Positions 3,072 through 23,104 of a DNA stretch of 29,562 nucleotides are shown piece after piece. Where the stretch lies: the IMG/VR virus record IMGVR_UViG_3300002835_000092; one strand, written 5' to 3'. Position 1 is the first letter of the stretch. Each line of letters starts with the position of its first letter. The translations under genes were made by a program, and so were the position numbers. The notes below the pieces were generated by a model that did no database searches, was not told where the DNA came from, and was given only the letters and a program-made list of their open reading frames with translations. Origin of the DNA: an uncultured virus (IMG/VR IMGVR_UViG_3300002835_000092) (taxonomy: Duplodnaviria; Heunggongvirae; Uroviricota; Caudoviricetes).

Positions 3072-4148
3072 TTAGAAGGGTAAATCTTCAACTTGTGGCT
3101 CTTCTGTATCATCAATTAAATTGATTACAGTTCTTCTTCTTGTAGTTGGTTCATCTAAAGGTTCATTTCCTAAAACACTATTAACAAATGCTTCTGCTGG
3201 AGTTACTGGATATTCATTATAAGAATCAGTAAAACTATTCAGAAGAGTAGAAGGATTAATTAAATTCTCATTTATCAATCTTCTTGATTCTTCTATATTA
3301 ATAGAATTAAGATAATCAGCACTAATAGGATTAATAGGGTCAATAGCACCTCTTCTTCTCATTTGAGCTACAATACCTTCCATTTTAGGAATTTCTTCTT
3401 CCCATATAACCTCATCAGTTTTAATAGGAACAAATTTTCTTTGTCTATCCTCAATTTTACTACCTATTCCAGGATTAAAAGTTTTGAATTGTTCATTACT
3501 TTTAAACATAATATTACCTACATTATCTCTTAAATGATTTTGTAATTCATCTACAGTATTGAATTTCAATTCAAACTCATTAGAATAAGTTAATTTTTCA
3601 ATTTTAGAAGTTGTGGTAAATACTACTGGAATTTCAGCTTTGTAAGCATCTAAAATATATTCTTTTTCTAATTTTTTATAGAAATTTGAATATACAGGAT
3701 TAGTTAGTAATTCAGTAGAAATTAATAAAGTTAAATGTTTAGCATTTTCTTTAGGAATTGAAACATTTGAATACCTTGATTGATAATGTAAACTTAATCT
3801 ATCAGGTTTAGTAGTCAATACCATAAGAAGTTCATCTTTTTCATTAACTATATAACCTTTTGCTACATGAATTATTATCTTTTCTTCTCCTACACCTAAA
3901 TTAAAAGGATATAAACCAACAGATTCATTTATCATTCCAAGAAAATCTCTTAAATTAAATTTTTTTGGTGAATTTTTATTTAATGCTGGTCTATTATAAA
4001 TTATAAAGTCTCCTTCATAAATTCTTTGATGTCGAGAACCTTCTCTATGACAATTAATTATAGGTATAAAATAAGAAGTAGCTGATGAACCAATTTTAAA
4101 CTCATTACCAGAGAACTCACTACTATAAGTTTCAGTTAATTGTAACAT
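3072..4148 (-). CDS. hypothetical protein with acidic SSB-like C-terminal tip (VEDLPF)
   Basis: 358 aa ORF starting 2 nt after the E1 stop; low-complexity acidic tail ending DLPF. Confidence 0.8.
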   Translation of the reverse strand: MLQLTETYSSEFSGNEFKIGSSATSYFIPIINCHREGSRHQRIYEGDFIIYNRPALNKNSPKKFNLRDFLGMINESVGLYPFNLGVGEEKIIIHVAKGYIVNEKDELLMVLTTKPDRLSLHYQSRYSNVSIPKENAKHLTLLISTELLTNPVYSNFYKKLEKEYILDAYKAEIPVVFTTTSKIEKLTYSNEFELKFNTVDELQNHLRDNVGNIMFKSNEQFKTFNPGIGSKIEDRQRKFVPIKTDEVIWEEEIPKMEGIVAQMRRRGAIDPINPISADYLNSINIEESRRLINENLINPSTLLNSFTDSYNEYPVTPAEAFVNSVLGNEPLDEPTTRRRTVINLIDDTEEPQVEDLPF

Positions 4149-4150
4149 AT

Positions 4151-4828
4151 TTAAAACTTATTAGTGGTTAAAGCTAAAGGAATAAAGAACTCGTGATAAA
4201 AGGGAACATCTCTCACAACTTCTCTTTCATATATGTTTGTCATGTGATTAGTGAAAAAAGCAGTCATTAAAGTAGCTATCATAGCTGCTGCATGTGAAGT
4301 TTGTTTCATTGTGCAAGGTGCATCTTCAACTTCTTCATCAGTAAATAATGTTTTTTCATAATCTGCAATTCTGTCTGGAGTTACACAGAAAATTTGCAAT
4401 TGTTCCATTTCTAATCTACCATCAATTAAAATAGGTGTTACTGCACAATTTTCAATACTTCTTTTCCAGTTTTCAAACATATTTTTTCTTGCTAACATAT
4501 TGTCAAAACCAGAAAACATAAAATAGTGAGTTGGAGAGTTTTCATCTATTCTATTGTTAAATCCTGACATTGAATCATTAGCAAATTCCTTAATAATTTC
4601 AGATAAGGCAGAAACTTTATGTTTCCCTACATCTGAAAGTCTAAATAATTGACCTCCTGTATTATGTTCTTCAATAATATCAAAGTCATATACAATTGGT
4701 TTAAATCCTGCTCTTGCAAGAAATAATGTGAGCCAAGAGGAAATTCCTCCTGCTCCACCTACCATTACAGTTTCATTTTCTTTTGGAAACCAAGGGGCAT
4801 CTTTAAATCTATTATACTGTTGTGTCAT
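4151..4828 (-). CDS. E1-like / ThiF-MoeB family adenylyltransferase
   Basis: VGGAGGIS nucleotide-binding loop, DFDIIEEHNTGGQ, DNMLARK, IDGR and candidate catalytic Cys in DAPCTMK. ATG at 4828 preferred over TTG at 4837. Confidence 0.9.
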   Translation of the reverse strand: MTQQYNRFKDAPWFPKENETVMVGGAGGISSWLTLFLARAGFKPIVYDFDIIEEHNTGGQLFRLSDVGKHKVSALSEIIKEFANDSMSGFNNRIDENSPTHYFMFSGFDNMLARKNMFENWKRSIENCAVTPILIDGRLEMEQLQIFCVTPDRIADYEKTLFTDEEVEDAPCTMKQTSHAAAMIATLMTAFFTNHMTNIYEREVVRDVPFYHEFFIPLALTTNKF

Positions 4829-6068
4829 TTTTCTCAAATTCTACAATCATAGCTTTAATAGCTTCAATTGTTACATTAATAAATGGAAATTGCATAACTT
4901 CGTCTTCTAATAAATCAATTACAGTATATGTATCTTCAATAAATTCTTCATCAGTAGAATCAGGAAAATGTTTGTCATACAAAAATGTGTAATTTTCAAT
5001 AACAGAGGAAGCAATTTGATAAGCATGTACTTCTAAATCTTCTAATAAAACTAAAGCATCTTCAAGATTTTCATCAGGTTCAATAGGAGTAGTAAATTTC
5101 ATTAACTCTACCAAGAATGTATCAATTGGACTTAATTCATCAATTTCTGATAAATCATCAAAAGTTCTAAAATCAATCATAGAAGCAATATCTTTTATTT
5201 TTTTACCTCTTTTTGATAATTTACTTTCATCTATTTTATAATGCTTGATTTTGTTAGCTAATTTAGCATTTTCTAAATTATTTACTACTGGAATAGCAGT
5301 AGGAGTATTAGGAACAAATTTACCATTAATCCATTTACCATTACTAAATGCTGTATTAACAGCAGGATATGTGTGAGGAGTAAATTGTTTAATAGGTTTA
5401 GGTTTCATAATTTCCTTAACTCTATTATCAAATCCCTCTTCCACAATTACTTGTTCAAATGGAGAAATAATTTCACAATCATAGACAAACATTTTATCTT
5501 TTTTCAAAGTAATATTTGGTCTATCAATTATGTATTTAGTTCCATCTTCATCATTTGCTAAATATGGAATTTCTTTAATTTCTTGTTCTAAACTTGCTAC
5601 AAAAGCAACTTTAGCCATAAAATCCATATAATTATTAACAATTAATGATAAATAAAAGTTGTGTGATGGAGAATTATCATTTAATTCAGCCATATCAGTA
5701 CCAGAGAAAAACACAGCCATAGTATTATGACTATGAATATGACCTACATACCAATCCATTCTTTTTTCATCTTCCATTAGATAATCAAGGTATCTATCAT
5801 CAAGCTCATATTCTGTATAAGCTGATGTTCCTTTATCTAATGGTAAAATATCTTCCAGTTTTATTTTGAATGTTAGTGGGTCTTTAATACTACCTTCAAT
5901 AGAGTAGAATAAAGCACCAGACCATTCATCTTTGTTTATATTTTTACAAAGGTACTTGATTTTGTTCAGAATCTCTTCTGACATAATTACTGGAAGTTTC
6001 AATGTAGTTAATTCCGCTACCTCTAACACAGGCTTTGTAAATTTCGGATTCGAGTTGTTTACAGACAT
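4812..6068 (-). CDS. JAB/MPN+ (JAMM) metalloprotease, deubiquitinase-like, with acidic C-terminal domain
   Basis: EWSG catalytic Glu plus GHIHSHNTMAVFFSGTD, matching HxHx7Sx2D. Confidence 0.9.
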   Translation of the reverse strand: MSVNNSNPKFTKPVLEVAELTTLKLPVIMSEEILNKIKYLCKNINKDEWSGALFYSIEGSIKDPLTFKIKLEDILPLDKGTSAYTEYELDDRYLDYLMEDEKRMDWYVGHIHSHNTMAVFFSGTDMAELNDNSPSHNFYLSLIVNNYMDFMAKVAFVASLEQEIKEIPYLANDEDGTKYIIDRPNITLKKDKMFVYDCEIISPFEQVIVEEGFDNRVKEIMKPKPIKQFTPHTYPAVNTAFSNGKWINGKFVPNTPTAIPVVNNLENAKLANKIKHYKIDESKLSKRGKKIKDIASMIDFRTFDDLSEIDELSPIDTFLVELMKFTTPIEPDENLEDALVLLEDLEVHAYQIASSVIENYTFLYDKHFPDSTDEEFIEDTYTVIDLLEDEVMQFPFINVTIEAIKAMIVEFEKNDTTV

Positions 6069-7200
6069 AATCTAAAAAATTAGGATAAATTCCATATTCG
6101 GAAATATCAATTGTTGTTATTTGTTCAATAGGTAATATATTGAAAGATAATTTCTTACCTTGAATATATAGGAAAGGCATTTCACCAGAACCTTGTTCTT
6201 TTATTCTATTTGTGATTAATTGTGGACCAGAAATCATTTGTCCTATTTCAGGATATGTGTAAAATTCACCATCACTTCCTTTTTTGCAAACAACTTTTAC
6301 AATATAATCTTTAAGATTTTCATTAGATAAAAATGCTTCTCTTAAATATTCTGTAAAAACAGAATCTTTTTTAATTTTATATATATTATCCATATATACA
6401 AAATTAAAAGGTAGTTTTTGTGAAACAGATAATTCATAATTTTGAAATTCTCTATAAATACCTATAATATCAGATGTTTGAGTAGTAACTCTTATAGCTG
6501 CATATTCTACTGTTATTTCTCCTATTCTAAAATGAGGACCTCCTTCTAAACTTTCCCAAGCAACAAGAGAATCAATAGTATAAAGCATTAATTCAAATTT
6601 ATCTGAATCAAATTCAGCAGATAATTCAATATCTAATTCTGATAAATCTTCTGAACCAATACAAAAGTTATTTGTAGTTAAACATTCACTAAAACCAGTA
6701 ATTTTTGATATACCAGGTAGATGACTATGCATATATCCTCTATTCCATTCATCCTGTACTAATGTTAATCTTGTACCTTGTACTCTTTTAGTATAAATAC
6801 AATTATTATCAACACTAAAAGTAACAGGTAATACAACTACTAAATCTAATAGATTTCTTGATTGTTCACTACTATTTGTAATTTCTAATTTAGGATAATG
6901 AAAAATAAAACTTATTTCATAGTAATTTTTATCACTTATTCTTCTATTATTTAGATGAATATCCCACTTATCTACAAACTTTCTTTCAAAAACAGTAATT
7001 AATTCAAAAAGTTGTTCTGTAAAAATAGCATAGTTTCTTTTATGCAGAATTTCAGGTCTATCATTTGAACTAATATAGCATATTTTACCTTTATCAATCA
7101 TCTTTTTTAACCAATTTCTATTTCTGGTTAATCCTGATATTCTTGCTGAACTAATATAGTTTTGAAACTTATTAGATGATTTATTAATTTTTAAATCCAT
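5944..7200 (-). CDS. putative prokaryotic E2-like (UBC-fold) conjugating enzyme
   Basis: YMHSHLP...NFCIG resembles the E2 HPN(I/V)...(I/V)CLG active-site region; lies between the Ubl and JAB/E1 genes. Confidence 0.6.
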   Translation of the reverse strand: MDLKINKSSNKFQNYISSARISGLTRNRNWLKKMIDKGKICYISSNDRPEILHKRNYAIFTEQLFELITVFERKFVDKWDIHLNNRRISDKNYYEISFIFHYPKLEITNSSEQSRNLLDLVVVLPVTFSVDNNCIYTKRVQGTRLTLVQDEWNRGYMHSHLPGISKITGFSECLTTNNFCIGSEDLSELDIELSAEFDSDKFELMLYTIDSLVAWESLEGGPHFRIGEITVEYAAIRVTTQTSDIIGIYREFQNYELSVSQKLPFNFVYMDNIYKIKKDSVFTEYLREAFLSNENLKDYIVKVVCKKGSDGEFYTYPEIGQMISGPQLITNRIKEQGSGEMPFLYIQGKKLSFNILPIEQITTIDISEYGIYPNFLDYVCKQLESEIYKACVRGSGINYIETSSNYVRRDSEQNQVPL

Positions 7201-7214
7201 TTTTTGAAGTAATT

Positions 7215-7247
7215 AAAAAAGCTCTTTACTTATGTAAAGAGCTTTTT
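7215..7247 (-). terminator. intrinsic terminator between Ubl and E2-like genes
   Basis: Perfect hairpin AAAAAGCTCTTTAC-TTAT-GTAAAGAGCTTTTT with flanking A/T runs. Confidence 0.8.
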
Positions 7248-7265
7248 GTTATAGAAATGAAAAGA

Positions 7266-8138
7266 TTATCCAAACATTTTAGCTTCAGCAGCTAATCTGT
7301 CATCTTCTTCTTTTTCAAGTCTTTTTTGTTCTTCTTTTTCAGCTTTTTCAGTAGCAATTTTTTCTTGCTCTTCTTTTTCAGCTTTTTCTCTTGCAATTCT
7401 TCTACCTTCATCTTCAGGAGATTCATTATCTTTTGAAGCAGCAACAGAAGCTACTACATCTGCAACAGTTGTTACAGTAGCAGTATCATCATTTTCAACT
7501 TCTTCTTTTAAACCAGGTAAATAATCATCAAGAATTTCATTTGCTCTATCAGAAACATCTTCATTTTCTGTATTATCACAAATTTCTTTTAATAAAGTTT
7601 CAACTTGTTCAACTCTATCAGCATTTGTAATAGTTCTTACAGGAGTAGAAGGAGTTTCTGTTACTGTAGTAGTTTCAGTAGCTACAGGAGCAACTTCTTC
7701 TTTAACATCTGCTTTTGCAGCACCAGAAGGAGCAACAAAAGTGTTTAATAACTCTCTCAAGATTTCAGTACCTTTTGTAGTATAGTTTTTTTCTTGATTA
7801 TAGTGAGCATCTGCTGCTTCTTTAAAAGAAGTAAAATCATCTTTGATAACAGCTTTAATATCTTTATAAGATAAACCATCTCCTCTACCACCAGATTTAA
7901 CTTGTTTAGGTCTCATAAAAACAGTAAAATCACCTGCTGGTAATACTGCTGCATCATTAACAAGGTCTGTTTTGTTAATGTTTTCTGTAGCATGTAATTT
8001 GTCAAGGTCATAACCTTCACTTTTAATCAGAGATTTTAATTCACCCCAAGTTGAAACTTCTGTTTCCAATTTTGCTTTTTTTGCTCCTTTTGTAGCATAA
8101 AGTGTAATAACTCTTGCTGTACTTGTTTGTGTACTCAT
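7266..8138 (-). CDS. ubiquitin-like (beta-grasp) precursor: N-terminal Ubl ending KSGG (residues 81-84) plus ~200 aa acidic/coiled-coil extension
   Basis: Beta-beta-alpha-beta pattern (RVITLY / KLETEVSTWGELKSLI / LPAGDFTVFM) ending in GG at nt 7892-7887; adjacent to E2-like, JAB and E1 genes. Confidence 0.7.
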   Translation of the reverse strand: MSTQTSTARVITLYATKGAKKAKLETEVSTWGELKSLIKSEGYDLDKLHATENINKTDLVNDAAVLPAGDFTVFMRPKQVKSGGRGDGLSYKDIKAVIKDDFTSFKEAADAHYNQEKNYTTKGTEILRELLNTFVAPSGAAKADVKEEVAPVATETTTVTETPSTPVRTITNADRVEQVETLLKEICDNTENEDVSDRANEILDDYLPGLKEEVENDDTATVTTVADVVASVAASKDNESPEDEGRRIAREKAEKEEQEKIATEKAEKEEQKRLEKEEDDRLAAEAKMFG

Positions 8139-8158
8139 TTTTTTAATTTTTTAAAAAT

Positions 8159-8908
8159 TTACCAATTGATTTTGTTTAGAGATTTTTTCTCTAATATTGT
8201 ATTAACATAACTGAAATGATTACAACCAAAAAAACCAGCATTTGAAGAATATGCTTCTGCTGCTGGATGTGCTGCTCTTAAAATATAGTTCATATATGGA
8301 CTATTAGGAACATCTTTTATAGTTTCTTTACTATAATTTTTTACATCAAAGAGTGTTTTTTTTGGCATATTTGAAATAAACATTTGTGCTTTCTTTCCCC
8401 ACAATAACCATATACATGGATTAGTGGAAGCAATATACCAAATAACTTTCTTTGTAAAATCTTCCCAATATTTAAGATGACTTCCAGGTTTTCCTGATTC
8501 AACTGTCAAAGCTGTATTTAGTAAAAATACACCTTGTTGTTCCCAATGTTCTAAAGTTTTCCATTCAGTATTATATTCATTTAAAGTATGAGATAATGTT
8601 TGATTTAACAATTTTTCATTTTCTAACTCTTTATAAATATTTTTTAAACTTACAGGAACTTTTACATCAGAATTTACAGCAAATGCTAATCCATTTGCAT
8701 TTCCTTTTGTAGGATATGGGTCTTGACCCAAGATAACAACTTTGATTTCTGAAACAGGTTTTTGAAACACTCTAAAAATATTCTGTTTTTCTGGGTAATA
8801 TATAGAAGTAGGTAATACTTCTTGATTTAATCTTAACATTTCTTCTTGATTTAACAACCCTGTTAATAAGGGAAGCCAAGAAAAATGAATTTTGTCTGTG
8901 GGTTTCAT
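8159..8908 (-). CDS. ung: uracil-DNA glycosylase, family 1
   Basis: Motifs VVILGQDPY, GLAF, LLNTALTV, LWG and HPA. Confidence 0.95.
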   Translation of the reverse strand: MKPTDKIHFSWLPLLTGLLNQEEMLRLNQEVLPTSIYYPEKQNIFRVFQKPVSEIKVVILGQDPYPTKGNANGLAFAVNSDVKVPVSLKNIYKELENEKLLNQTLSHTLNEYNTEWKTLEHWEQQGVFLLNTALTVESGKPGSHLKYWEDFTKKVIWYIASTNPCIWLLWGKKAQMFISNMPKKTLFDVKNYSKETIKDVPNSPYMNYILRAAHPAAEAYSSNAGFFGCNHFSYVNTILEKKSLNKINW

Positions 8909-9939
8909 GTGAATTTGATTAAAAACTCTTCTAAAGATTCTTTTCCTTTTCTGTGTAATAAATCAGAAGGGTCTGATATACCAATAACATTTAGTTTTTC
9001 TGGTAGCCACAAAGAATTACATTTATTAGGAAAATAAGAATTGATTAAATTACTGATTTTTTGAGAACTCTCAATCCCTTGAGTATCATTATCAAACCAT
9101 ACAATAACTTTATTAAATCTTTTAATTATAGGAATTAAAATTGTAGAATCTGGTATCATACCTTCATTCTGAAACCATATTGCATATTTACCATTATTTA
9201 TAAGAACTCTCCAGTCCTTATATGATTTAGTAATAATTAATTGATTTCCAAAAGGAGGTAATTTATTTAAACCACCAATATCATCTTTTGTACAAGTAGA
9301 AACAAATCTACCTTTACCTTCTCTATAAGGAAAATAAAGTTTTTTTCTACCATTATTAAAATCTGTATATCCATAGCAAATATCATAACATCTACTACTG
9401 AAATCTCCTTTTTTTGAATTTGATATATGATATTTGTTAATCGCAAAAACTTTATCTTCTATCAAATTCTCTTTAGTTATTCCATATCTATTTTCCCAAA
9501 ATACACCATCTTTTTTTAAAAATGGTCTTGAATCAAAATTAATTATTACTTCTTTTCTTTGTATGATATGTTGGATTCTTTTTTCTGCAATTACATTCTT
9601 ATTCTTTATTAGTCTGTTATACACATATTCAAGTGTAAGGTAGAAATTAGAAATTTTAAAGTATTGCTGTACAGCATCAAAACAATCCATAGGTTTATTA
9701 ACTCTGCTATTAGCATAATCAATAAATCTTAATTTTCCAGTATGAGATGTAGTTCTTTCAAACCAACAACCTGGATTTCTATCATTTCTAAAAGGAGAAG
9801 TAACATAACTATATTCTTCTGGTTGAAAACCAAAAACTAATTCAAAAATCTCTTCTTCTGTAACATATTCAAGAATAACATTTTGATTAATAAAACCTCT
9901 TCTATCAGTATTGTCAGATGTAAAAACATTCTTATTCAT
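8905..9939 (-). CDS. DNA primase (DnaG/TOPRIM type, crAss-like)
   Basis: N-terminal SPFRNDRNPGC (ZBD remnant); TOPRIM motifs IITKSYKD and WFDNDTQG; C-terminal SDPSD. Confidence 0.85.
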   Translation of the reverse strand: MNKNVFTSDNTDRRGFINQNVILEYVTEEEIFELVFGFQPEEYSYVTSPFRNDRNPGCWFERTTSHTGKLRFIDYANSRVNKPMDCFDAVQQYFKISNFYLTLEYVYNRLIKNKNVIAEKRIQHIIQRKEVIINFDSRPFLKKDGVFWENRYGITKENLIEDKVFAINKYHISNSKKGDFSSRCYDICYGYTDFNNGRKKLYFPYREGKGRFVSTCTKDDIGGLNKLPPFGNQLIITKSYKDWRVLINNGKYAIWFQNEGMIPDSTILIPIIKRFNKVIVWFDNDTQGIESSQKISNLINSYFPNKCNSLWLPEKLNVIGISDPSDLLHRKGKESLEEFLIKFT

Positions 9940-10784: not shown

Positions 10785-11141
10785 TTACCAAGTACCATTA
10801 GCACTTGTAGGAGCAGTAACAGCTTCTTCTGCTGTTTCACCTACAATTACATCATCTTGATTCTCTTCAACTGTATCAATTACTTCTTGTACAGCTTCTT
10901 CTTCAAAAGCTACTTCTTGAGTAGTATTTGCTTCACCATCTGTATCATCAATTAAGTTGATAGCAAATTGTTTTTTTGCTTTACGATTTTTCAATTTTGG
11001 ATGTTGCCATACAGTTGCTTTCATAGCACTTACAGTTTCTCCGAAATGAGCAGCAATTTCTTCTCTGCTTTTACCTTCATCTAATAAAGCTAATACTGCT
11101 GATACAGTAATATCTTTTTTAACTTCTTGTTCTACTGACAT
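10785..11141 (-). CDS. small HTH-like protein with acidic tail (118 aa)
   Basis: ATG at 11141 (MSVEQ...) preferred over TTG at 11177; LLDEGKSREEIAAHFG is HTH-like. Confidence 0.7.
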   Translation of the reverse strand: MSVEQEVKKDITVSAVLALLDEGKSREEIAAHFGETVSAMKATVWQHPKLKNRKAKKQFAINLIDDTDGEANTTQEVAFEEEAVQEVIDTVEENQDDVIVGETAEEAVTAPTSANGTW

Positions 11142-11154
11142 AATATAAACTAAT

Positions 11155-11322
11155 TTAATTTTTAAATGTTTTTTCAAGCTCTTTTGCTTCTTGAGCTAAT
11201 CTTTTGTTTTCTTCCTCTTCATAAGAAGTTTCTTTTGCTGTTTTAGATAAAAACAACATTAAAATGAGACCTATATTTAAGAGAATACTAACTACAAGAA
11301 AGAATATTAGTAATTTTTGCAT
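11155..11322 (-). CDS. small membrane-anchored protein (55 aa), absent from ORF track
   Basis: MQKLLIFFLVVSILLNIGLILMLFLSKTAKETSYEEEENKRLAQEAKELEKTFKN fills the intergenic gap. Confidence 0.7.
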   Translation of the reverse strand: MQKLLIFFLVVSILLNIGLILMLFLSKTAKETSYEEEENKRLAQEAKELEKTFKN

Positions 11323-20479: not shown

Positions 20480-20905
20480 AATGTAAAAAATTAAATGTTA
20501 AAAAATAAATGAATAAAATTAATGATAAAAAAAATGAGAAATCCCCAAAACTCATTTTACCGAATAATAGAAATAATAGTTTACAACAAATTTAAAACTT
20601 AATTTTAAAATGCTCTACTATCAGTCTATCAAAGAACTTATGGATTTTTTAATACCAACAAGAATATTTAACATAATATGTTTTGTGCTATGCATCTACA
20701 TATTTAATAGGTTAGCTTTAACCTCGAACTTTATTTTAATTTACTGTTCTAATTTTGTGTAAAACTAAATGATTCTCAAACGGAGAATAAATATTGACTG
20801 AACTTACTGGCATATTGTCTTCATCATATATCTTGGTACAAGAAATTCAGATTACTAACTCACACAGGCTTGGCAGGATTGATTTATTCATTTGTTATAT
20901 TATAA

Positions 20906-21001
20906 AAAAGTTTAGATAGAAATTATTTGTAGCCACATTATACTACCAACTATGTATGTAGGGTTGCTCCCACTATGTCTAATTTCGCACTCTAAACTTT
21001 T
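20906..21001. ncRNA. putative structured RNA (~95 nt interrupted hairpin)
   Basis: Nested stems AAAAGTTTAGA/TCTAAACTTTT and GAAATTA/TAATTTC enclose a GC-richer core. Confidence 0.3.
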
Positions 21002-21010
21002 AAGTTTTAA

Positions 21011-21120
21011 AAAGAATGTAATTACAAAGAGATTTGAACTCTTATTCCTATTTTTCAAGGTCTTAACCAATGATTATGAGAACTTCCCTCATAATTCTAA
21101 AATGATATAATTACATCTTT
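21011..21120 (-). ncRNA. tRNA-like element / degenerate tRNA
   Basis: T-arm AAGAG-TTCAAAT-CTCTT, D-loop-like TGGTTAAG and closing stem ATGTAATTATA/TGTAATTACAT; has an extra hairpin and no canonical anticodon arm. Confidence 0.4.
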
Positions 21121-21144
21121 AAACTGCTGATATACAGCTTGTTG

Positions 21145-21561
21145 TGGAGTGGCTGGGAATCGAACCCAGGTCTTACTTATTTCGATATTATAATTTTATA
21201 CAGCTTTAGTAGCAGAACTTTACTTAAACCCTCATCTGGACTACCATTCAGGGTTACATCTCTTTCAATTCTTCATGTTAGAACAGGGTCAAACTGATTT
21301 CTCAATATGACGAATCCACCAGAGCATTTATTTATAAGGGTAACACACAAAACCCTACTGATGTTTAGGCAGCAACTGCAACATCTTCTCTAATTAAAGA
21401 GAAAACCATATTCATATTTGCTTCAACTTGTGCGTTATCTTCTAAAGACACTACACTATTATTTGTGTTTCCAATTACTTGATTTCACCTTAGTTTTAAA
21501 CAGTTATCTCTCTGTGCTGAATTATAATACTTAACACAAGCAATCAATACCAGACCACCCC
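21145..21561 (-). ncRNA. ssrA: tmRNA (one-piece, 417 nt)
   Basis: 5' GGGGTGGTCTGGTATTGA and 3' GACCTGGGTTCGATTCCCAGCCACTCCA. Acceptor stem GGGGUGG/CCACUCC has the G3-U wobble and an A discriminator. Helix 2 TATTATAATT/AATTATAATA plus CAGC/GCTG. Tag ORF starts at nt 90 and ends VAVAA-stop. Confidence 0.93.
21365..21472 (-). other. tmRNA tag reading frame (35 codons): GNTNNSVVSLEDNAQVEANMNMVFSLIREDVAVAA*
   Basis: Resume codon GGA preceded by AGUAAUU (U at -5, A at -4), at tmRNA position 90. Confidence 0.8.
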
Positions 21562-21575
21562 TTTTTTTAAAAAAT

Positions 21576-21715
21576 GCTTGTCTTTCCAAGCTGTCAAGTT
21601 ATCTTAACTATTGATTTTCCCCTATTTTGGAAATTTATTTTTCCGCCATAAACCATTAGGGTTTGGTGTGTGTCCTATCTGCTTACTCCACACATTCACA
21701 TACACAGATGAATAT
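21576..21715 (-). ncRNA. putative small structured RNA ending in a C4-antisense-like hairpin
   Basis: TGACAGCTTGGAAAGACAAGC at 21596-21576, preceded by several GC-richer stems. The C4 resemblance is from memory and unverified. Confidence 0.35.
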
Positions 21716-21739
21716 ATTATGAAAATTATTAATGTAATA

Positions 21740-21785
21740 AAAAATACTTATATAATAGAACCAAACTTATTATATAAGTATTTTT
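21740..21785. terminator. 18-bp perfect inverted repeat, terminator-like in both directions
   Basis: AAAAATACTTATATAATA / TATTATATAAGTATTTTT. Confidence 0.65.
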
Positions 21786-22491
21786 GTTAGTAAGAAATAT
21801 GCATCTTTCTTTACCCTGTAATATTTCAATGTTAATCCTGACACATTTCTCTGATTTCCTTGAATAATTACTAACTGGAGATTGCTGAACTGATGATTCT
21901 GTATTTAATGTCTATTAATATCATCTGAAATGAAGACATGGTATTTTAAAATCTTTTGACCTGCCTTGTGTACAGGTAGTTTCTCTATAAGATTCTCACT
22001 AATTCTGAATGAAGAAAGCAAAAGATTTATAAGATAAATTAGTAATATAATAAAAGCTGTAACATATTTAATAAACTGATACACTATTCCTAAAATAGAG
22101 GTTCTCAATTAACTCCTTACCGAAATTCAAGGTATTTATTATCATTTACAATTTAAACATGAAGGACATCTGCTATATTTCATACAGTTGTAAGTTTTTC
22201 CTGTGGTAATTTTCCTCATGTACTTTTATTGCCCCACAGACCTGGACATTTTTCATTACTAATTTAAAGGATAAATTTCAAGTTTTTATTATACATTAAT
22301 TAAGCTGTCCTGCCAATTTAGAAGATTGGTGCTATGTCAATGACCTGGAATATTATTGAGAGTTTCCAGAACTTTTTTCTCTCTACTTGAAATTTAATTT
22401 TTAGAAAAATGAATGAATCAAAACTTTAATTAAAGGATTACATGATTCATTCATCTTCTGTTAATAAACCCAACTCTATCAACAATGTTTC

Positions 22492-22701
22492 TTACATAGA
22501 TTCTAATTTAGCTAAATCATTAGTTAAAATATCTATTTGTTTTTTTCTGTCAGCTATAAGTATATTTCTCATTTCTATTAGAATATTTGATTGTTCATCA
22601 ACATCAAATTCTTGTTGCATAAGAAATATAACTTTTTCTGCTTGACTATATGTTTTTTGTGCTTTGGTTGGAGCAAAGAAGTTTTTAATTTTTTCAATCA
22701 T
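22492..22701 (-). CDS. hypothetical protein (69 aa)
   Basis: ATG with A-rich leader; followed by a hairpin at 22409-22454. Confidence 0.7.
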   Translation of the reverse strand: MIEKIKNFFAPTKAQKTYSQAEKVIFLMQQEFDVDEQSNILIEMRNILIADRKKQIDILTNDLAKLESM

Positions 22702-22726
22702 AAGATTAATTTTTAAAAAGTTATGA

Positions 22727-22754
22727 AAATAAAGTCCAAAATTAATTGGACTTT
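22727..22754 (-). terminator. terminator-like hairpin
   Basis: AAAGTCCAA/TTGGACTTT with a T-rich tail on the minus strand. Confidence 0.5.
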
Positions 22755-22769
22755 AAATCATTTGATGTT

Positions 22770-22940
22770 TTAGTAGTGGAGACTTGCTCTTACACCAATT
22801 ACATTTTGAGAGATTATTCTATTAGTTAAACCATTTTGAATGTATTTAACTTCTACTTCTAATCTTTTTCCCATAATGTTTCTTATCTTATTAGAAGAAG
22901 CTACTAATCTTCCTACTAATATTCTGTTTCTCTTTGTCAT
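22770..22940 (-). CDS. small basic protein (56 aa), absent from ORF track
   Basis: MTKRNRILVGRLVASSNKIRNIMGKRLEVEVKYIQNGLTNRIISQNVIGVRASLHY; preceded by the ACCCAACA motif and the repeated promoter-like motif. Confidence 0.6.
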   Translation of the reverse strand: MTKRNRILVGRLVASSNKIRNIMGKRLEVEVKYIQNGLTNRIISQNVIGVRASLHY

Positions 22941-23025
22941 TGTTAATAATTTTATGTTGGGTTAATATTCACACTCTAATGTCCTTGAACTACAATACTC
23001 TTAAAAGAGAAACTTTATTGTAATG

Positions 23026-23050
23026 CTACAAATAAGTGAGGGTTTTGAAA
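23026..23050 (-). promoter_or_regulatory. repeated phage promoter-like motif, copy 1
   Basis: TTTCAAAACCCTCACTTATTTGTAG on the minus strand; 16-nt core identical in 4 intergenic copies. Confidence 0.7.
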
Positions 23051-23062
23051 TAGGGTTATATA

Positions 23063-23100
23063 ATAAAAAAACATAAAGTAATATACCTTATGTTTTTTAT
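23063..23100 (-). terminator. terminator-like hairpin after lipoprotein gene
   Basis: AAAAAACATAA/TTATGTTTTTT inverted repeat. Confidence 0.55.
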
Positions 23101-23104
23101 ATTT

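What the first reader, a model, noticed from the sequence alone, without database searches (positions are those of the whole stretch)
7266..7892. Ubl made as a precursor: internal GG followed by a ~206 aa acidic/coiled-coil extension
Seen: G83-G84 (nt 7892-7887) lies inside a 290 aa ORF and is followed by a small helical region, a T/E/A-rich linker and an E/K-rich coiled coil. Established: E1 needs a free C-terminal Gly, and JAB proteases mature Ubl precursors. Inference: the cognate JAB cleaves at KSG/G or KSGG, which gates conjugation and releases a second polypeptide with its own role, as in ubiquitin-fusion proteins.
Basis: partly seen in the sequence, partly recalled or inferred. Interest (0 to 1): 0.7.

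Follow-up and report, generated by a model that had tools for sequence, protein, structure and literature searches.

The report
Phage ubiquitin-like precursor carrying second protein
This phage makes its own ubiquitin-like tag as the front end of a longer protein that its own protease most likely cuts after one unchanging glycine; in some relatives a mobile gene has split the two halves at exactly that point and both are kept, so the tail is probably a second working protein.

Summary
The 290-aa ORF and G83-G84 (nt 7892-7887) are real. Residues 4-81 model as a ubiquitin fold (Z 9.5). The gene leads a conserved Ubl, E2-like, JAB, E1 cluster with intact catalytic residues, in the replication module of a Flavobacterium FpV4-like phage; crAss001 has it too (gp79-gp76).

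Two corrections: the signal is one glycine, not GG (Gly in 148 of 150 relatives, second Gly in 10), and the 'coiled coil' is a lineage-specific charged helix.

Two natural experiments support cleavage after G83. In gut crAss-like phages an HNH endonuclease has split the gene at that glycine, and the tail survives as its own gene (4 loci; 24 of 120 listed proteins). None of 120 short relatives ends at the glycine; 41 keep a 1-5 residue cap.

Cleavage, conjugation and the tail's job are inferred, not shown. Some lineages lack the tail, and its small domain matches no family. Precedents: BilA and BubAB. Ten literature searches showed no description for these phages. This scan noted the same design on four other genomes, one with the split.

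The parts
7266..8138 (-). Ubl precursor gene, 290 aa (orthologue of crAss001 gp79; 92% identical to the FpV4/Fpv3 protein)
7890..8138 (-). Ubiquitin-like beta-grasp domain, residues 1-83 (predicted mature Ubl, 9.06 kDa, pI 9.0)
   Evidence: AlphaFold2 model; VIA-align Z 9.5, rmsd 3.4, 75 aligned to Ddi2 UBL; Z 9.2, rmsd 2.3, 73 aligned to UBXD7 UBX; mass
7887..7898 (-). K81-S82-G83|G84 junction; predicted cut after G83 (between nt 7890 and 7889)
   Evidence: G at P1 in 148 of 150, S/A at P2 in 147, K/R at P3 in 144, G at P1' in 10; HNH insertions split relatives at this point
7734..7877 (-). Small three-helix domain of the extension (about 88-135), motif N-[YWF]-T-x3-T-xx-L; no family assigned, weak likeness to Rho_N
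   Evidence: pLDDT about 90; directly after the Gly in 122 of 150; hhalign to Rho_N probability 10%, pairwise P 0.003
7629..7733 (-). Disordered T/E/A-rich linker (136-170), variable between homologues
   Evidence: pLDDT < 50 at 140-168
7491..7628 (-). Acidic two-helix hairpin (171-216)
   Evidence: helices 172-189 and 193-215; similar paired helices visible in alignments A1 and A6
7269..7418 (-). Charged C-terminal helix (241-290) ending in the acidic motif L-A-x-E-A-K-M-F; the long E/K part is lineage-specific, the tip is conserved in kind
   Evidence: last 20 residues net negative in 129 of 141; a hydrophobic residue among the last 4 in 136 of 141
7216..7247 (-). 14-bp hairpin with a U-rich 3' arm between the Ubl stop and the E2 start (intrinsic-terminator-like)
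   Evidence: -17 kcal/mol, z -5.2, 0 of 200 shuffles; terminator-like in 57 of 118 distinct post-stop windows against 0.13% of shuffles; missed by the consensus scan
5944..7200 (-). E2-like protein, 418 aa; UBC-like fold in residues about 25-232, invariant S159-H160 and C180
   Evidence: (best Z 6.0, rmsd 4.6, 136 aligned to Tsg101 UEV; list dominated by E2/UEV/RWD chains, BubB Z 5.6; middling scores)
4812..6068 (-). JAB/JAMM metalloprotease, 418 aa; invariant E48, H112, H114, S122, D125
   Evidence: PADLOC JAB E 4.5e-6; Pfam Prok-JAB E 0.007, under the cut-off
4151..4837 (-). E1/ThiF-family adenylating enzyme, 228 aa; glycine-rich loop, invariant C175
   Evidence: Pfam ThiF E 4e-12
3072..4148 (-). 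Conserved uncharacterised 358-aa protein at the end of the cluster (same position as crAss001 gp75)
   Evidence: follows E1 in nearly all loci long enough to show it; no named family
8159..9939 (-). Upstream context: primase and uracil-DNA glycosylase of the replication module

Best explanation
The gene is a two-protein precursor of a phage-encoded ubiquitin-like conjugation system. (1) It is translated as Ubl (1-83) fused to a 207-residue passenger (shown: sequence and fold model). (2) The phage JAB zinc protease cuts after the invariant G83, giving a 9.06-kDa Ubl and a 22.9-kDa acidic protein that starts at G84 (inferred, about 0.85). (3) E1 adenylates the new C-terminus and passes it through C175 to C180 of the E2-like protein, which joins it to target lysines; JAB can reverse this (inferred from conserved residues and from Bil, about 0.7). 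(4) The passenger is a protein in its own right, made 1:1 with the tag and probably in excess over the enzymes because of the hairpin after the stop codon. It has a small helical binding domain, a probable self-association hairpin and an acidic tail with a hydrophobic tip (own role inferred, about 0.75). My best guess for its job is an adaptor or scaffold at the phage replication machinery, among whose genes the cluster sits (about 0.35). The long tail is not what gates the tag: a single extra residue does that in other lineages.
For: Ubiquitin fold ending at the K-S-G motif. Gly at P1 in 148 of the best 150 hits of a Ubl-only profile, which does not select for a tail; 141 of 150 have 100 or more residues after it; no Pro at P1'. 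E2, JAB and E1 all follow in 131 of 131 loci with 4.3 kb or more downstream (loci partly redundant). Catalytic residues invariant in 18 of 18 diverse loci for each enzyme. None of the 120 listed short homologues ends at the Gly; 41 end 1-5 residues after an intact motif. Natural fission at the junction: cr106_1 and 3 of 80 gut-clade loci. The inserted gene is a NUMOD4-HNH-NUMOD1 endonuclease that leaves no room for an intron; no Rfam intron match. The tail gene has a new A-rich start region and leader, survives decay of the HNH in L121, and 24 of 120 listed hits are such stand-alone tails. Split forms nest among fused ones in a JAB+E1 tree. Biochemical precedents: BilC cuts BilA at Gly97|Ala98 (PMC10557695); BubCD cuts BubAB after G229 (PMC11601596).
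Against: No cleavage, thioester or conjugate has been observed; all of it is comparative. The E2 assignment rests on a middling fold match (best Z 6.0) plus a His/Cys motif, with no sequence-level hit. Eight loci carry a capped Ubl with E2 directly next and no tail gene found within about 5 kb, so the passenger is dispensable in some lineages; that search was insensitive, as it also missed the short tails of L137, L141, L144 and L161-L166. Halves split by a homing endonuclease can reassemble (NrdA, PMC3045599), so fission does not prove independent function. The small domain is not basic (median net charge 0; 47 positive, 60 negative of 137) and matches no family, which weakens a DNA-binding reading.
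Confidence: 0.72

Rival explanations
1. Cleavage after G83 happens, but the tail is only a pro-domain (cap, chaperone or inhibitor of the Ubl) with no role once released; split forms keep it because it still binds the Ubl or the enzymes in trans.
For: Tail absent in 8 capped loci. Shorter tails without the small domain in others. Reassembly of endonuclease-split halves is known.
Against: One to five residues suffice as a cap in 41 homologues. The tail keeps three conserved modules in both the aquatic and the gut clade, persists as a separate intact gene and can carry an extra folded domain (ribosomal L7/L12 C-terminal domain in cr126_1, E 5e-12).
Confidence: 0.13
2. The matured Ubl is not a protein tag but a ThiS/MoaD-type carrier (thiocarboxylate or acyl donor) for a nucleotide, DNA or RNA modification during phage replication.
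For: E1 is a single ThiF-like domain whose best NCBIfam scores are ThiF models, all under their cut-offs. The cluster sits among DNA-metabolism genes.
Against: An E2-fold protein with invariant His and Cys is always next to it, and E1 has an invariant Cys. None of the 20 window ORFs scanned matched a sulfur-relay family (the other ORFs were not scanned).
Confidence: 0.08
3. The protein is not cut and works full length as a UBL-domain scaffold (Rad23-like); or it is cut after G84 (KSGG), as the first reader also allowed.
For: The fused form is by far the commonest (141 of 150; 77 of 80). Several top fold matches are integral UBL/UBX domains. This protein does have GG.
Against: The Gly is invariant while the next residue is variable (Gly in 10 of 150). 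Fission at that point is tolerated. Capped stand-alone Ubls sit in the same cluster.
Confidence: 0.07

Closest known systems
Type I Bub operon: BubAB (Ubl-E2 fusion) cut by the JAB domain of BubCD (PMC11601596; passages read)
   Same: Ubl made as the front of a longer protein; a JAB/JAMM peptidase cuts right after a single conserved Gly and frees a second functional polypeptide.
   Different: Here the passenger is not the E2 but an unassigned three-module acidic protein. E2, JAB and E1 are separate genes; E1 and E2 keep invariant Cys, whereas Bub E1 lacks the catalytic Cys and its E2 uses Ser. The system is phage-encoded.
BilABCD, types I and II (PMC10557695; passages read)
   Same: Four separate genes for Ubl, E2, JAB and E1; Ubl pre-processed after one Gly (Gly97|Ala98); Cys-based relay. 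The capped forms here resemble BilA, which has up to nine residues past the Gly.
   Different: BilD is an IAD-AAD-CYS multidomain E1, against a 228-aa single ThiF-like domain here. Bil is a host defence against phage; this cluster is carried by the phage in its replication module.
Lambdoid/T1 tail-assembly TAPI-TAPK (Iyer, Burroughs and Aravind 2006, PMC1779556; passages read)
   Same: Phage-encoded Ubl with a C-terminal domain behind a glycine junction, predicted to be cut by the neighbouring JAB.
   Different: That description names no E1 or E2 and places it in the tail module; here there is a full E1/E2 set in the replication module.
Operon type 6d of Iyer et al. 2006; equating it with the PRTRC system is recalled
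   Same: [quoted passage not shown]
   Different: The 6d E2 lacks the classical His before the Cys; here H160 precedes C180. PRTRC models score far below their cut-offs.
Eukaryotic ubiquitin-ribosomal protein fusions (recalled, no call)
   Same: One gene gives a tag and an unrelated working protein 1:1 after protease cleavage.
   Different: Analogy only: a single-Gly site, a prokaryotic virus and an unrelated passenger.
Phage Aeh1 nrdA split by the mobE endonuclease (Crona et al. 2010, PMC3045599; abstract and outline read; phage name recalled)
   Same: A free-standing homing endonuclease splits a phage gene in two and supplies new terminal sequences.
   Different: NrdA halves must reassemble; here the split falls on a predicted protease site.

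Membership tests
Ubiquitin-like (beta-grasp) modifier | Ubiquitin-type beta-grasp fold | tested here: met
   Predicted model; 22 chains at Z >= 8 among 48,161, top rows ubiquitin-like; best Z 9.5, rmsd 3.4, 75 aligned
Ubiquitin-like (beta-grasp) modifier | Conserved Gly at the end of the fold | tested here: met
   148 of 150; invariant in alignments A1, A6, A7, A8
Ubiquitin-like (beta-grasp) modifier | Di-glycine motif | tested here: not met
   Second Gly after it in 10 of 150; Gly before it in 2 of 150
Ubiquitin-like (beta-grasp) modifier | Covalent conjugation to target lysines through E1 and E2 | not testable with these tools
   Only conserved catalytic residues seen
JAB-processed Ubl precursor | Cognate JAB with intact E-x(n)-H-x-H-x7-S-x2-D motif (motif recalled) in the cluster | tested here: met
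   E48, H112, H114, S122, D125 invariant in 18 of 18 and 16 of 16
JAB-processed Ubl precursor | Cleavage after the conserved Gly | not testable with these tools
   Indirect only
Type I Bub | Ubl-E2 fusion and JAB-E1 fusion | tested here: not met
   Four separate ORFs; features
Type I Bub | E1 without catalytic Cys; E2 with catalytic Ser | tested here: not met
   E1 C175 and E2 C180 invariant; that they are catalytic is inferred
Type I Bub | BubE (DUF6527) gene | tested here: inconclusive
   No Pfam match for the 358-aa fifth protein; its fold was not predicted
Bil type I/II | Separate Ubl, E2, JAB and E1 genes | tested here: met
Bil type I/II | [quoted passage not shown] | tested here: not met
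   E1 is 228 aa with one ThiF match; feature
Bil type I/II | Host-encoded anti-phage function | tested here: not met
   Locus is in phage genomes; the gut-clade pattern found only 3 MAG contigs and 1 weak hit in the genome collection; function itself not testable
6d / PRTRC | E2 lacking the classical His before the Cys | tested here: not met
   H160 invariant, 20 residues before C180; feature
6d / PRTRC | PRTRC family models over their cut-offs | tested here: not met
   PRTRC_ThiF 29.5 against 144.75 bits; PRTRC_A 13.1 against 101.8
Rho_N / HeH / SAP-like domain (small domain of the tail) | Sequence or profile match to the family | tested here: inconclusive
   hhalign 138 against 28 Rho_N sequences: probability 10%, P 0.003, 30 columns; controls P 0.07-0.32. 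No such family listed in Pfam scans of 19 and 145 members (25 of 94 families shown). Rho_N in 0 of 6 phage records. SAP and LEM not tested by profile.
Rho_N / HeH / SAP-like domain (small domain of the tail) | Helix-extended-helix fold | not tested

The most novel reading that the evidence does not exclude
A large group of crAss-like and Flavobacterium phages runs its own SUMO-like control of DNA replication from one precursor: the JAB cut yields both the tag and its dedicated adaptor or first substrate. The released acidic protein docks on the phage replisome (or a host machine) through its hydrophobic-tipped tail and steers the E2 to targets, standing in for an E3. Homing endonucleases exploit the cut site as a cost-free landing place.
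Probability: 0.2. Interest if true: 0.9.

Novelty: new variant of a known kind. Interest (0 to 1): 0.63.

Why it matters
The characterised bacterial ubiquitin-like systems I read about are host-encoded and mostly anti-phage. Here a full set (Ubl, E2-like, JAB, E1) is a fixed part of the replication module of a large phage group: 1,913 clusters at 50% identity match the Ubl. It is present in cultured phages whose records call the Ubl gene 'hypothetical' (crAss001, DAC15, DAC17, FpV4), so it can be tested at once. The precursor predicts a second, unannotated protein hidden in the same ORF. The natural splits mark the cut site to the residue and offer ready-made strains for separating the two functions. 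JAB-cut Ubl precursors are not new in themselves, which caps the score.

Tried and rejected
Complex prediction, JAB (15-205) + Zn with Ubl precursor (5-136): no verdict (median 0.61, one unrelated control 0.46); not used as evidence either way.

KSGG as the site: rejected. Coiled coil: not supported.

Family for the small tail domain: Pfam scans, PHROGs, PDB sequences, ESM Atlas (best TM 0.65 to an unnamed 97-aa viral protein) and Rho_N searches gave nothing firm; the targeted Rho_N comparison is weak. The cr106_1 tail gene is divergent: profile match to the small domain only probability 9%, P 0.0036. I assign it as the tail from position, leader and C-terminal motif; the L114, L121 and L128 tails match clearly.

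E2 by sequence: nothing in Pfam, NCBIfam, PADLOC, PDB sequences or the Atlas. Foldseek against the PDB for the Ubl model: no match at E <= 0.001.

Intron as the explanation of the splits: no Rfam intron match and no room for one. Ribosomal bypassing was not tested beyond noting the new start and leader.

RNA runs: only scattered contigs in two RNA libraries, not shown transcribed. The promoter scan was at chance level (32 against 38.5 expected).

Label slips in my scripts: one search printed 7 'split' rows, of which L073, L127 and L131 are pattern misses and are fused; 'L167_cap0' is an offset error (it ends S-G-L).

Literature: ten searches (listings only) showed no paper on this system. The main texts of PMC7886860, PMC6235969 and PMC8375218 contain no 'ubiquitin'. 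Their supplementary annotation tables were not read and could hold such labels; most subscription journals are outside the library.

Full report
OBSERVATION. The ORF at 7266-8138 (minus strand) encodes 290 aa. G83 is at nt 7892-7890 and G84 at 7889-7887; it is the only GG in the protein. Two public DNA runs carry 4100-8300 in one contig with no differing letter, so the junction is not an assembly slip, though these runs may be the source of the window. An AlphaFold2 model from a 41-sequence alignment shows a beta-grasp domain, a three-helix domain (91-133), a disordered linker (140-168), a helical hairpin (172-215) and a long C-terminal helix (241-289). Against 48,161 solved chains, residues 4-81 match ubiquitin-like domains (best Z 9.5, rmsd 3.4, 75 aligned; 22 chains at Z 8 or more). 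The last helix lacks a hydrophobic heptad (at most 3 of 13-15 a/d positions in any register) and has 16 opposite-charge i,i+4 pairs, so it reads as a charged single helix. A comparably charged stretch is found in 17 of 141 homologues.

CONTEXT. The protein is 92% identical to a hypothetical protein of Flavobacterium phages FpV4 and Fpv3. Through cr128_1 it links to crAss-like phages of the Steigviridae, including crAss001 (gp79), DAC15 and DAC17. I did not place the window's own phage taxonomically beyond this. Downstream lie a 418-aa protein, a JAB protease, a ThiF-family E1 and a 358-aa unknown; upstream lie primase and uracil-DNA glycosylase. All three enzymes follow the Ubl in 131 of 131 loci with at least 4.3 kb downstream (some contigs were fetched twice). 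In 18 diverse loci per enzyme, the JAB residues E48, H112, H114, S122 and D125, the E1 glycine loop and C175, and S159-H160 and C180 of the 418-aa protein are invariant. That protein models with pLDDT 87, and its fold list is dominated by E2, UEV and RWD chains, BubB among them, but at middling scores (best Z 6.0, rmsd 4.6, 136 aligned). No sequence library recognised it. I call it E2-like on fold, motif and position. A 14-bp hairpin at 7247-7216 follows the Ubl stop (z -5.2). The crAss001 middle genes, largely replication functions, start at 10-30 min (PMC8375218, passages); gp79 is not named there.

THE SIGNAL IS ONE GLYCINE. A profile of the Ubl domain alone found 1,913 clusters at 50% identity (E <= 0.001), of which the best 150 were listed. 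Among these, the last position is Gly in 148 (the other two look truncated or frameshifted), preceded by Ser or Ala in 147 and Lys or Arg in 144. The next residue is Ala 58, Ser 18, Leu 15, Val 11, Ile 11, Gly 10, and never Pro. That Pro blocks deubiquitinase cleavage is recalled. An earlier set of 89 unique homologues gave Gly at the next position in 10. 141 of the 150 have at least 100 residues after the Gly.

THE TAIL HAS THREE CONSERVED MODULES. The small helical domain follows the Gly directly in 122 of 150. A helical hairpin and an acidic end with a hydrophobic tip recur in both the aquatic and gut clades. The last 20 residues are net negative in 129 of 141, and a hydrophobic residue lies among the last four in 136 of 141. 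cr126_1 has a ribosomal L7/L12 C-terminal domain inserted in the linker (E 5e-12). The small domain has no family. A targeted comparison of 138 copies with 28 Rho_N domains aligned both helices, but at probability 10% (pairwise P 0.003; HTH and reversed controls P 0.07-0.32), and its median net charge is 0.

NATURAL EXPERIMENT 1: FISSION AT THE GLYCINE. In cr106_1 the gene is in pieces: a 92-aa Ubl ending K-S-G-K-F, a 171-aa NUMOD4-HNH-NUMOD1 endonuclease starting one base after the stop, and a 130-aa gene in the place of the tail. Of 80 gut-clade loci (the best 80 of 291), 3 are split the same way and 77 are fused (after correcting three pattern misses). L114 and L128 carry the endonuclease; in L121 it has decayed by deletion while both halves stay open. 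The tail genes start with a new A-rich region and leader. There is no Rfam intron match and no room for one. A search with the L121 tail gave 1,206 hits; of the 120 listed, 96 are fused and 24 are stand-alone tails carrying the same kind of leader, and one fused relative is 95% identical. In a JAB+E1 tree of 41 rows the four split forms nest among fused ones and need three changes, two forced by strong branches (midpoint root, near-identical rows dropped from 131). So fusion is ancestral in that clade, the covalent link is dispensable, and the tail is kept once free. The caveat is that endonuclease-split halves can reassemble (PMC3045599, abstract).

NATURAL EXPERIMENT 2: NEVER A BARE GLYCINE. 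A search limited to 41-156 residues listed 120 of 130 hits. None ends at the conserved Gly. 44 end 1-5 residues later, 41 of them after an intact motif (22 are 91-aa gut forms; one ends in a second Gly three residues on); 18 stop before the Gly and look like fragments; 58 run longer. Among 32 loci fetched for the divergent short forms, 8 have a 1-2 residue cap with the E2 next and no tail gene, and about ten have shorter tails without the small domain. A tail profile found nothing near the capped genes, but it also missed the short tails, so it is insensitive. Trimming by JAB thus looks obligatory across the family, while the long passenger is optional.

MECHANISM. Shown: sequence, conservation, gene order, predicted folds, natural splits. 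Inferred: the JAB cuts G83|G84; E1 adenylates G83 and relays through C175 to E2 C180; target lysines are modified; the 22.9-kDa acidic passenger works separately, most likely as an adaptor or scaffold in phage DNA replication. Rivals are a tail that is only a pro-domain (0.13), a ThiS/MoaD-type carrier role (0.08), and no cut or a cut after G84 (0.07). A counter-defence role for the conjugation, against host Bil or CBASS, is possible and untested.

COMPARISON. It works like type I Bub, where BubCD cuts BubAB after G229 (PMC11601596, passages), and like Bil, where BilC cuts BilA at Gly97|Ala98 (PMC10557695, passages). It is a member of neither: the fusions, the E1 architecture and the catalytic residues differ. 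It also fails the 6d/PRTRC tests. Lambdoid TAPI is a predicted phage precedent for a JAB-cut Ubl fusion, described without E1 or E2 (PMC1779556, passages). Ten searches (listings only) showed no paper on this system, and three crAss papers lack the word 'ubiquitin' in their main text; supplements and most subscription journals were not seen. This scan has noted the same design on four other genomes.

VERDICT. A real feature. It is a new variant of a known kind; interest 0.63.

Noticed in passing
L056:5501-6427 (cr126_1): The Ubl precursor carries a ribosomal L7/L12 C-terminal domain (Pfam E 5e-12) inserted between the small domain and the hairpin of the tail.
   Followed up: partly
window 5944-6068: The E2-like and JAB ORFs overlap by 125 nt; overlaps of about 60-250 nt by longest start recur in most related loci. 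True start codons were not checked.
   Followed up: no
window 3072-4148: Conserved 358-aa unknown after E1, with a better-conserved N-terminal 200 residues and an acidic tail ending D-L-P-F; a candidate E3-like factor or target. No family hit.
   Followed up: partly
L061, L068, L104 (after the Ubl gene); L089, L094, L097, L105, L108-L112 (before it); L020, L137, L138 (E1 interrupted); L119, L122 (JAB interrupted): HNH-like genes and other insertions cluster around and inside this gene set, as expected for conserved, important genes.
   Followed up: no
L139:4591, L140:5448, L145:1733, L137:5347: In several lineages with a capped or short-tailed Ubl, the E2-like protein begins with a long acidic N-terminal stretch; it may take over from the missing acidic tail. 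No homology to the tail was detected.
   Followed up: partly
L054:10260-11411 (crAss001 gp76) and other gut-clade loci: Gut-clade E1 proteins have variable acidic N-terminal extensions (about 280-385 aa in all, against 228 here).
   Followed up: no
L038:6980-7417: At a contig end the Ubl reading frame switches shortly after the K-S-G motif into primase-like sequence; probably a chimeric assembly.
   Followed up: no
window 10785-11177: A conserved 130-aa acidic protein three genes upstream of primase-UDG-Ubl (position of crAss001 gp82), present in nearly all loci; unassigned.
   Followed up: no
window 20480-23104: About 2.6 kb without an ORF of 70 aa or more, between the replication genes and a run of small genes.
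   Followed up: no
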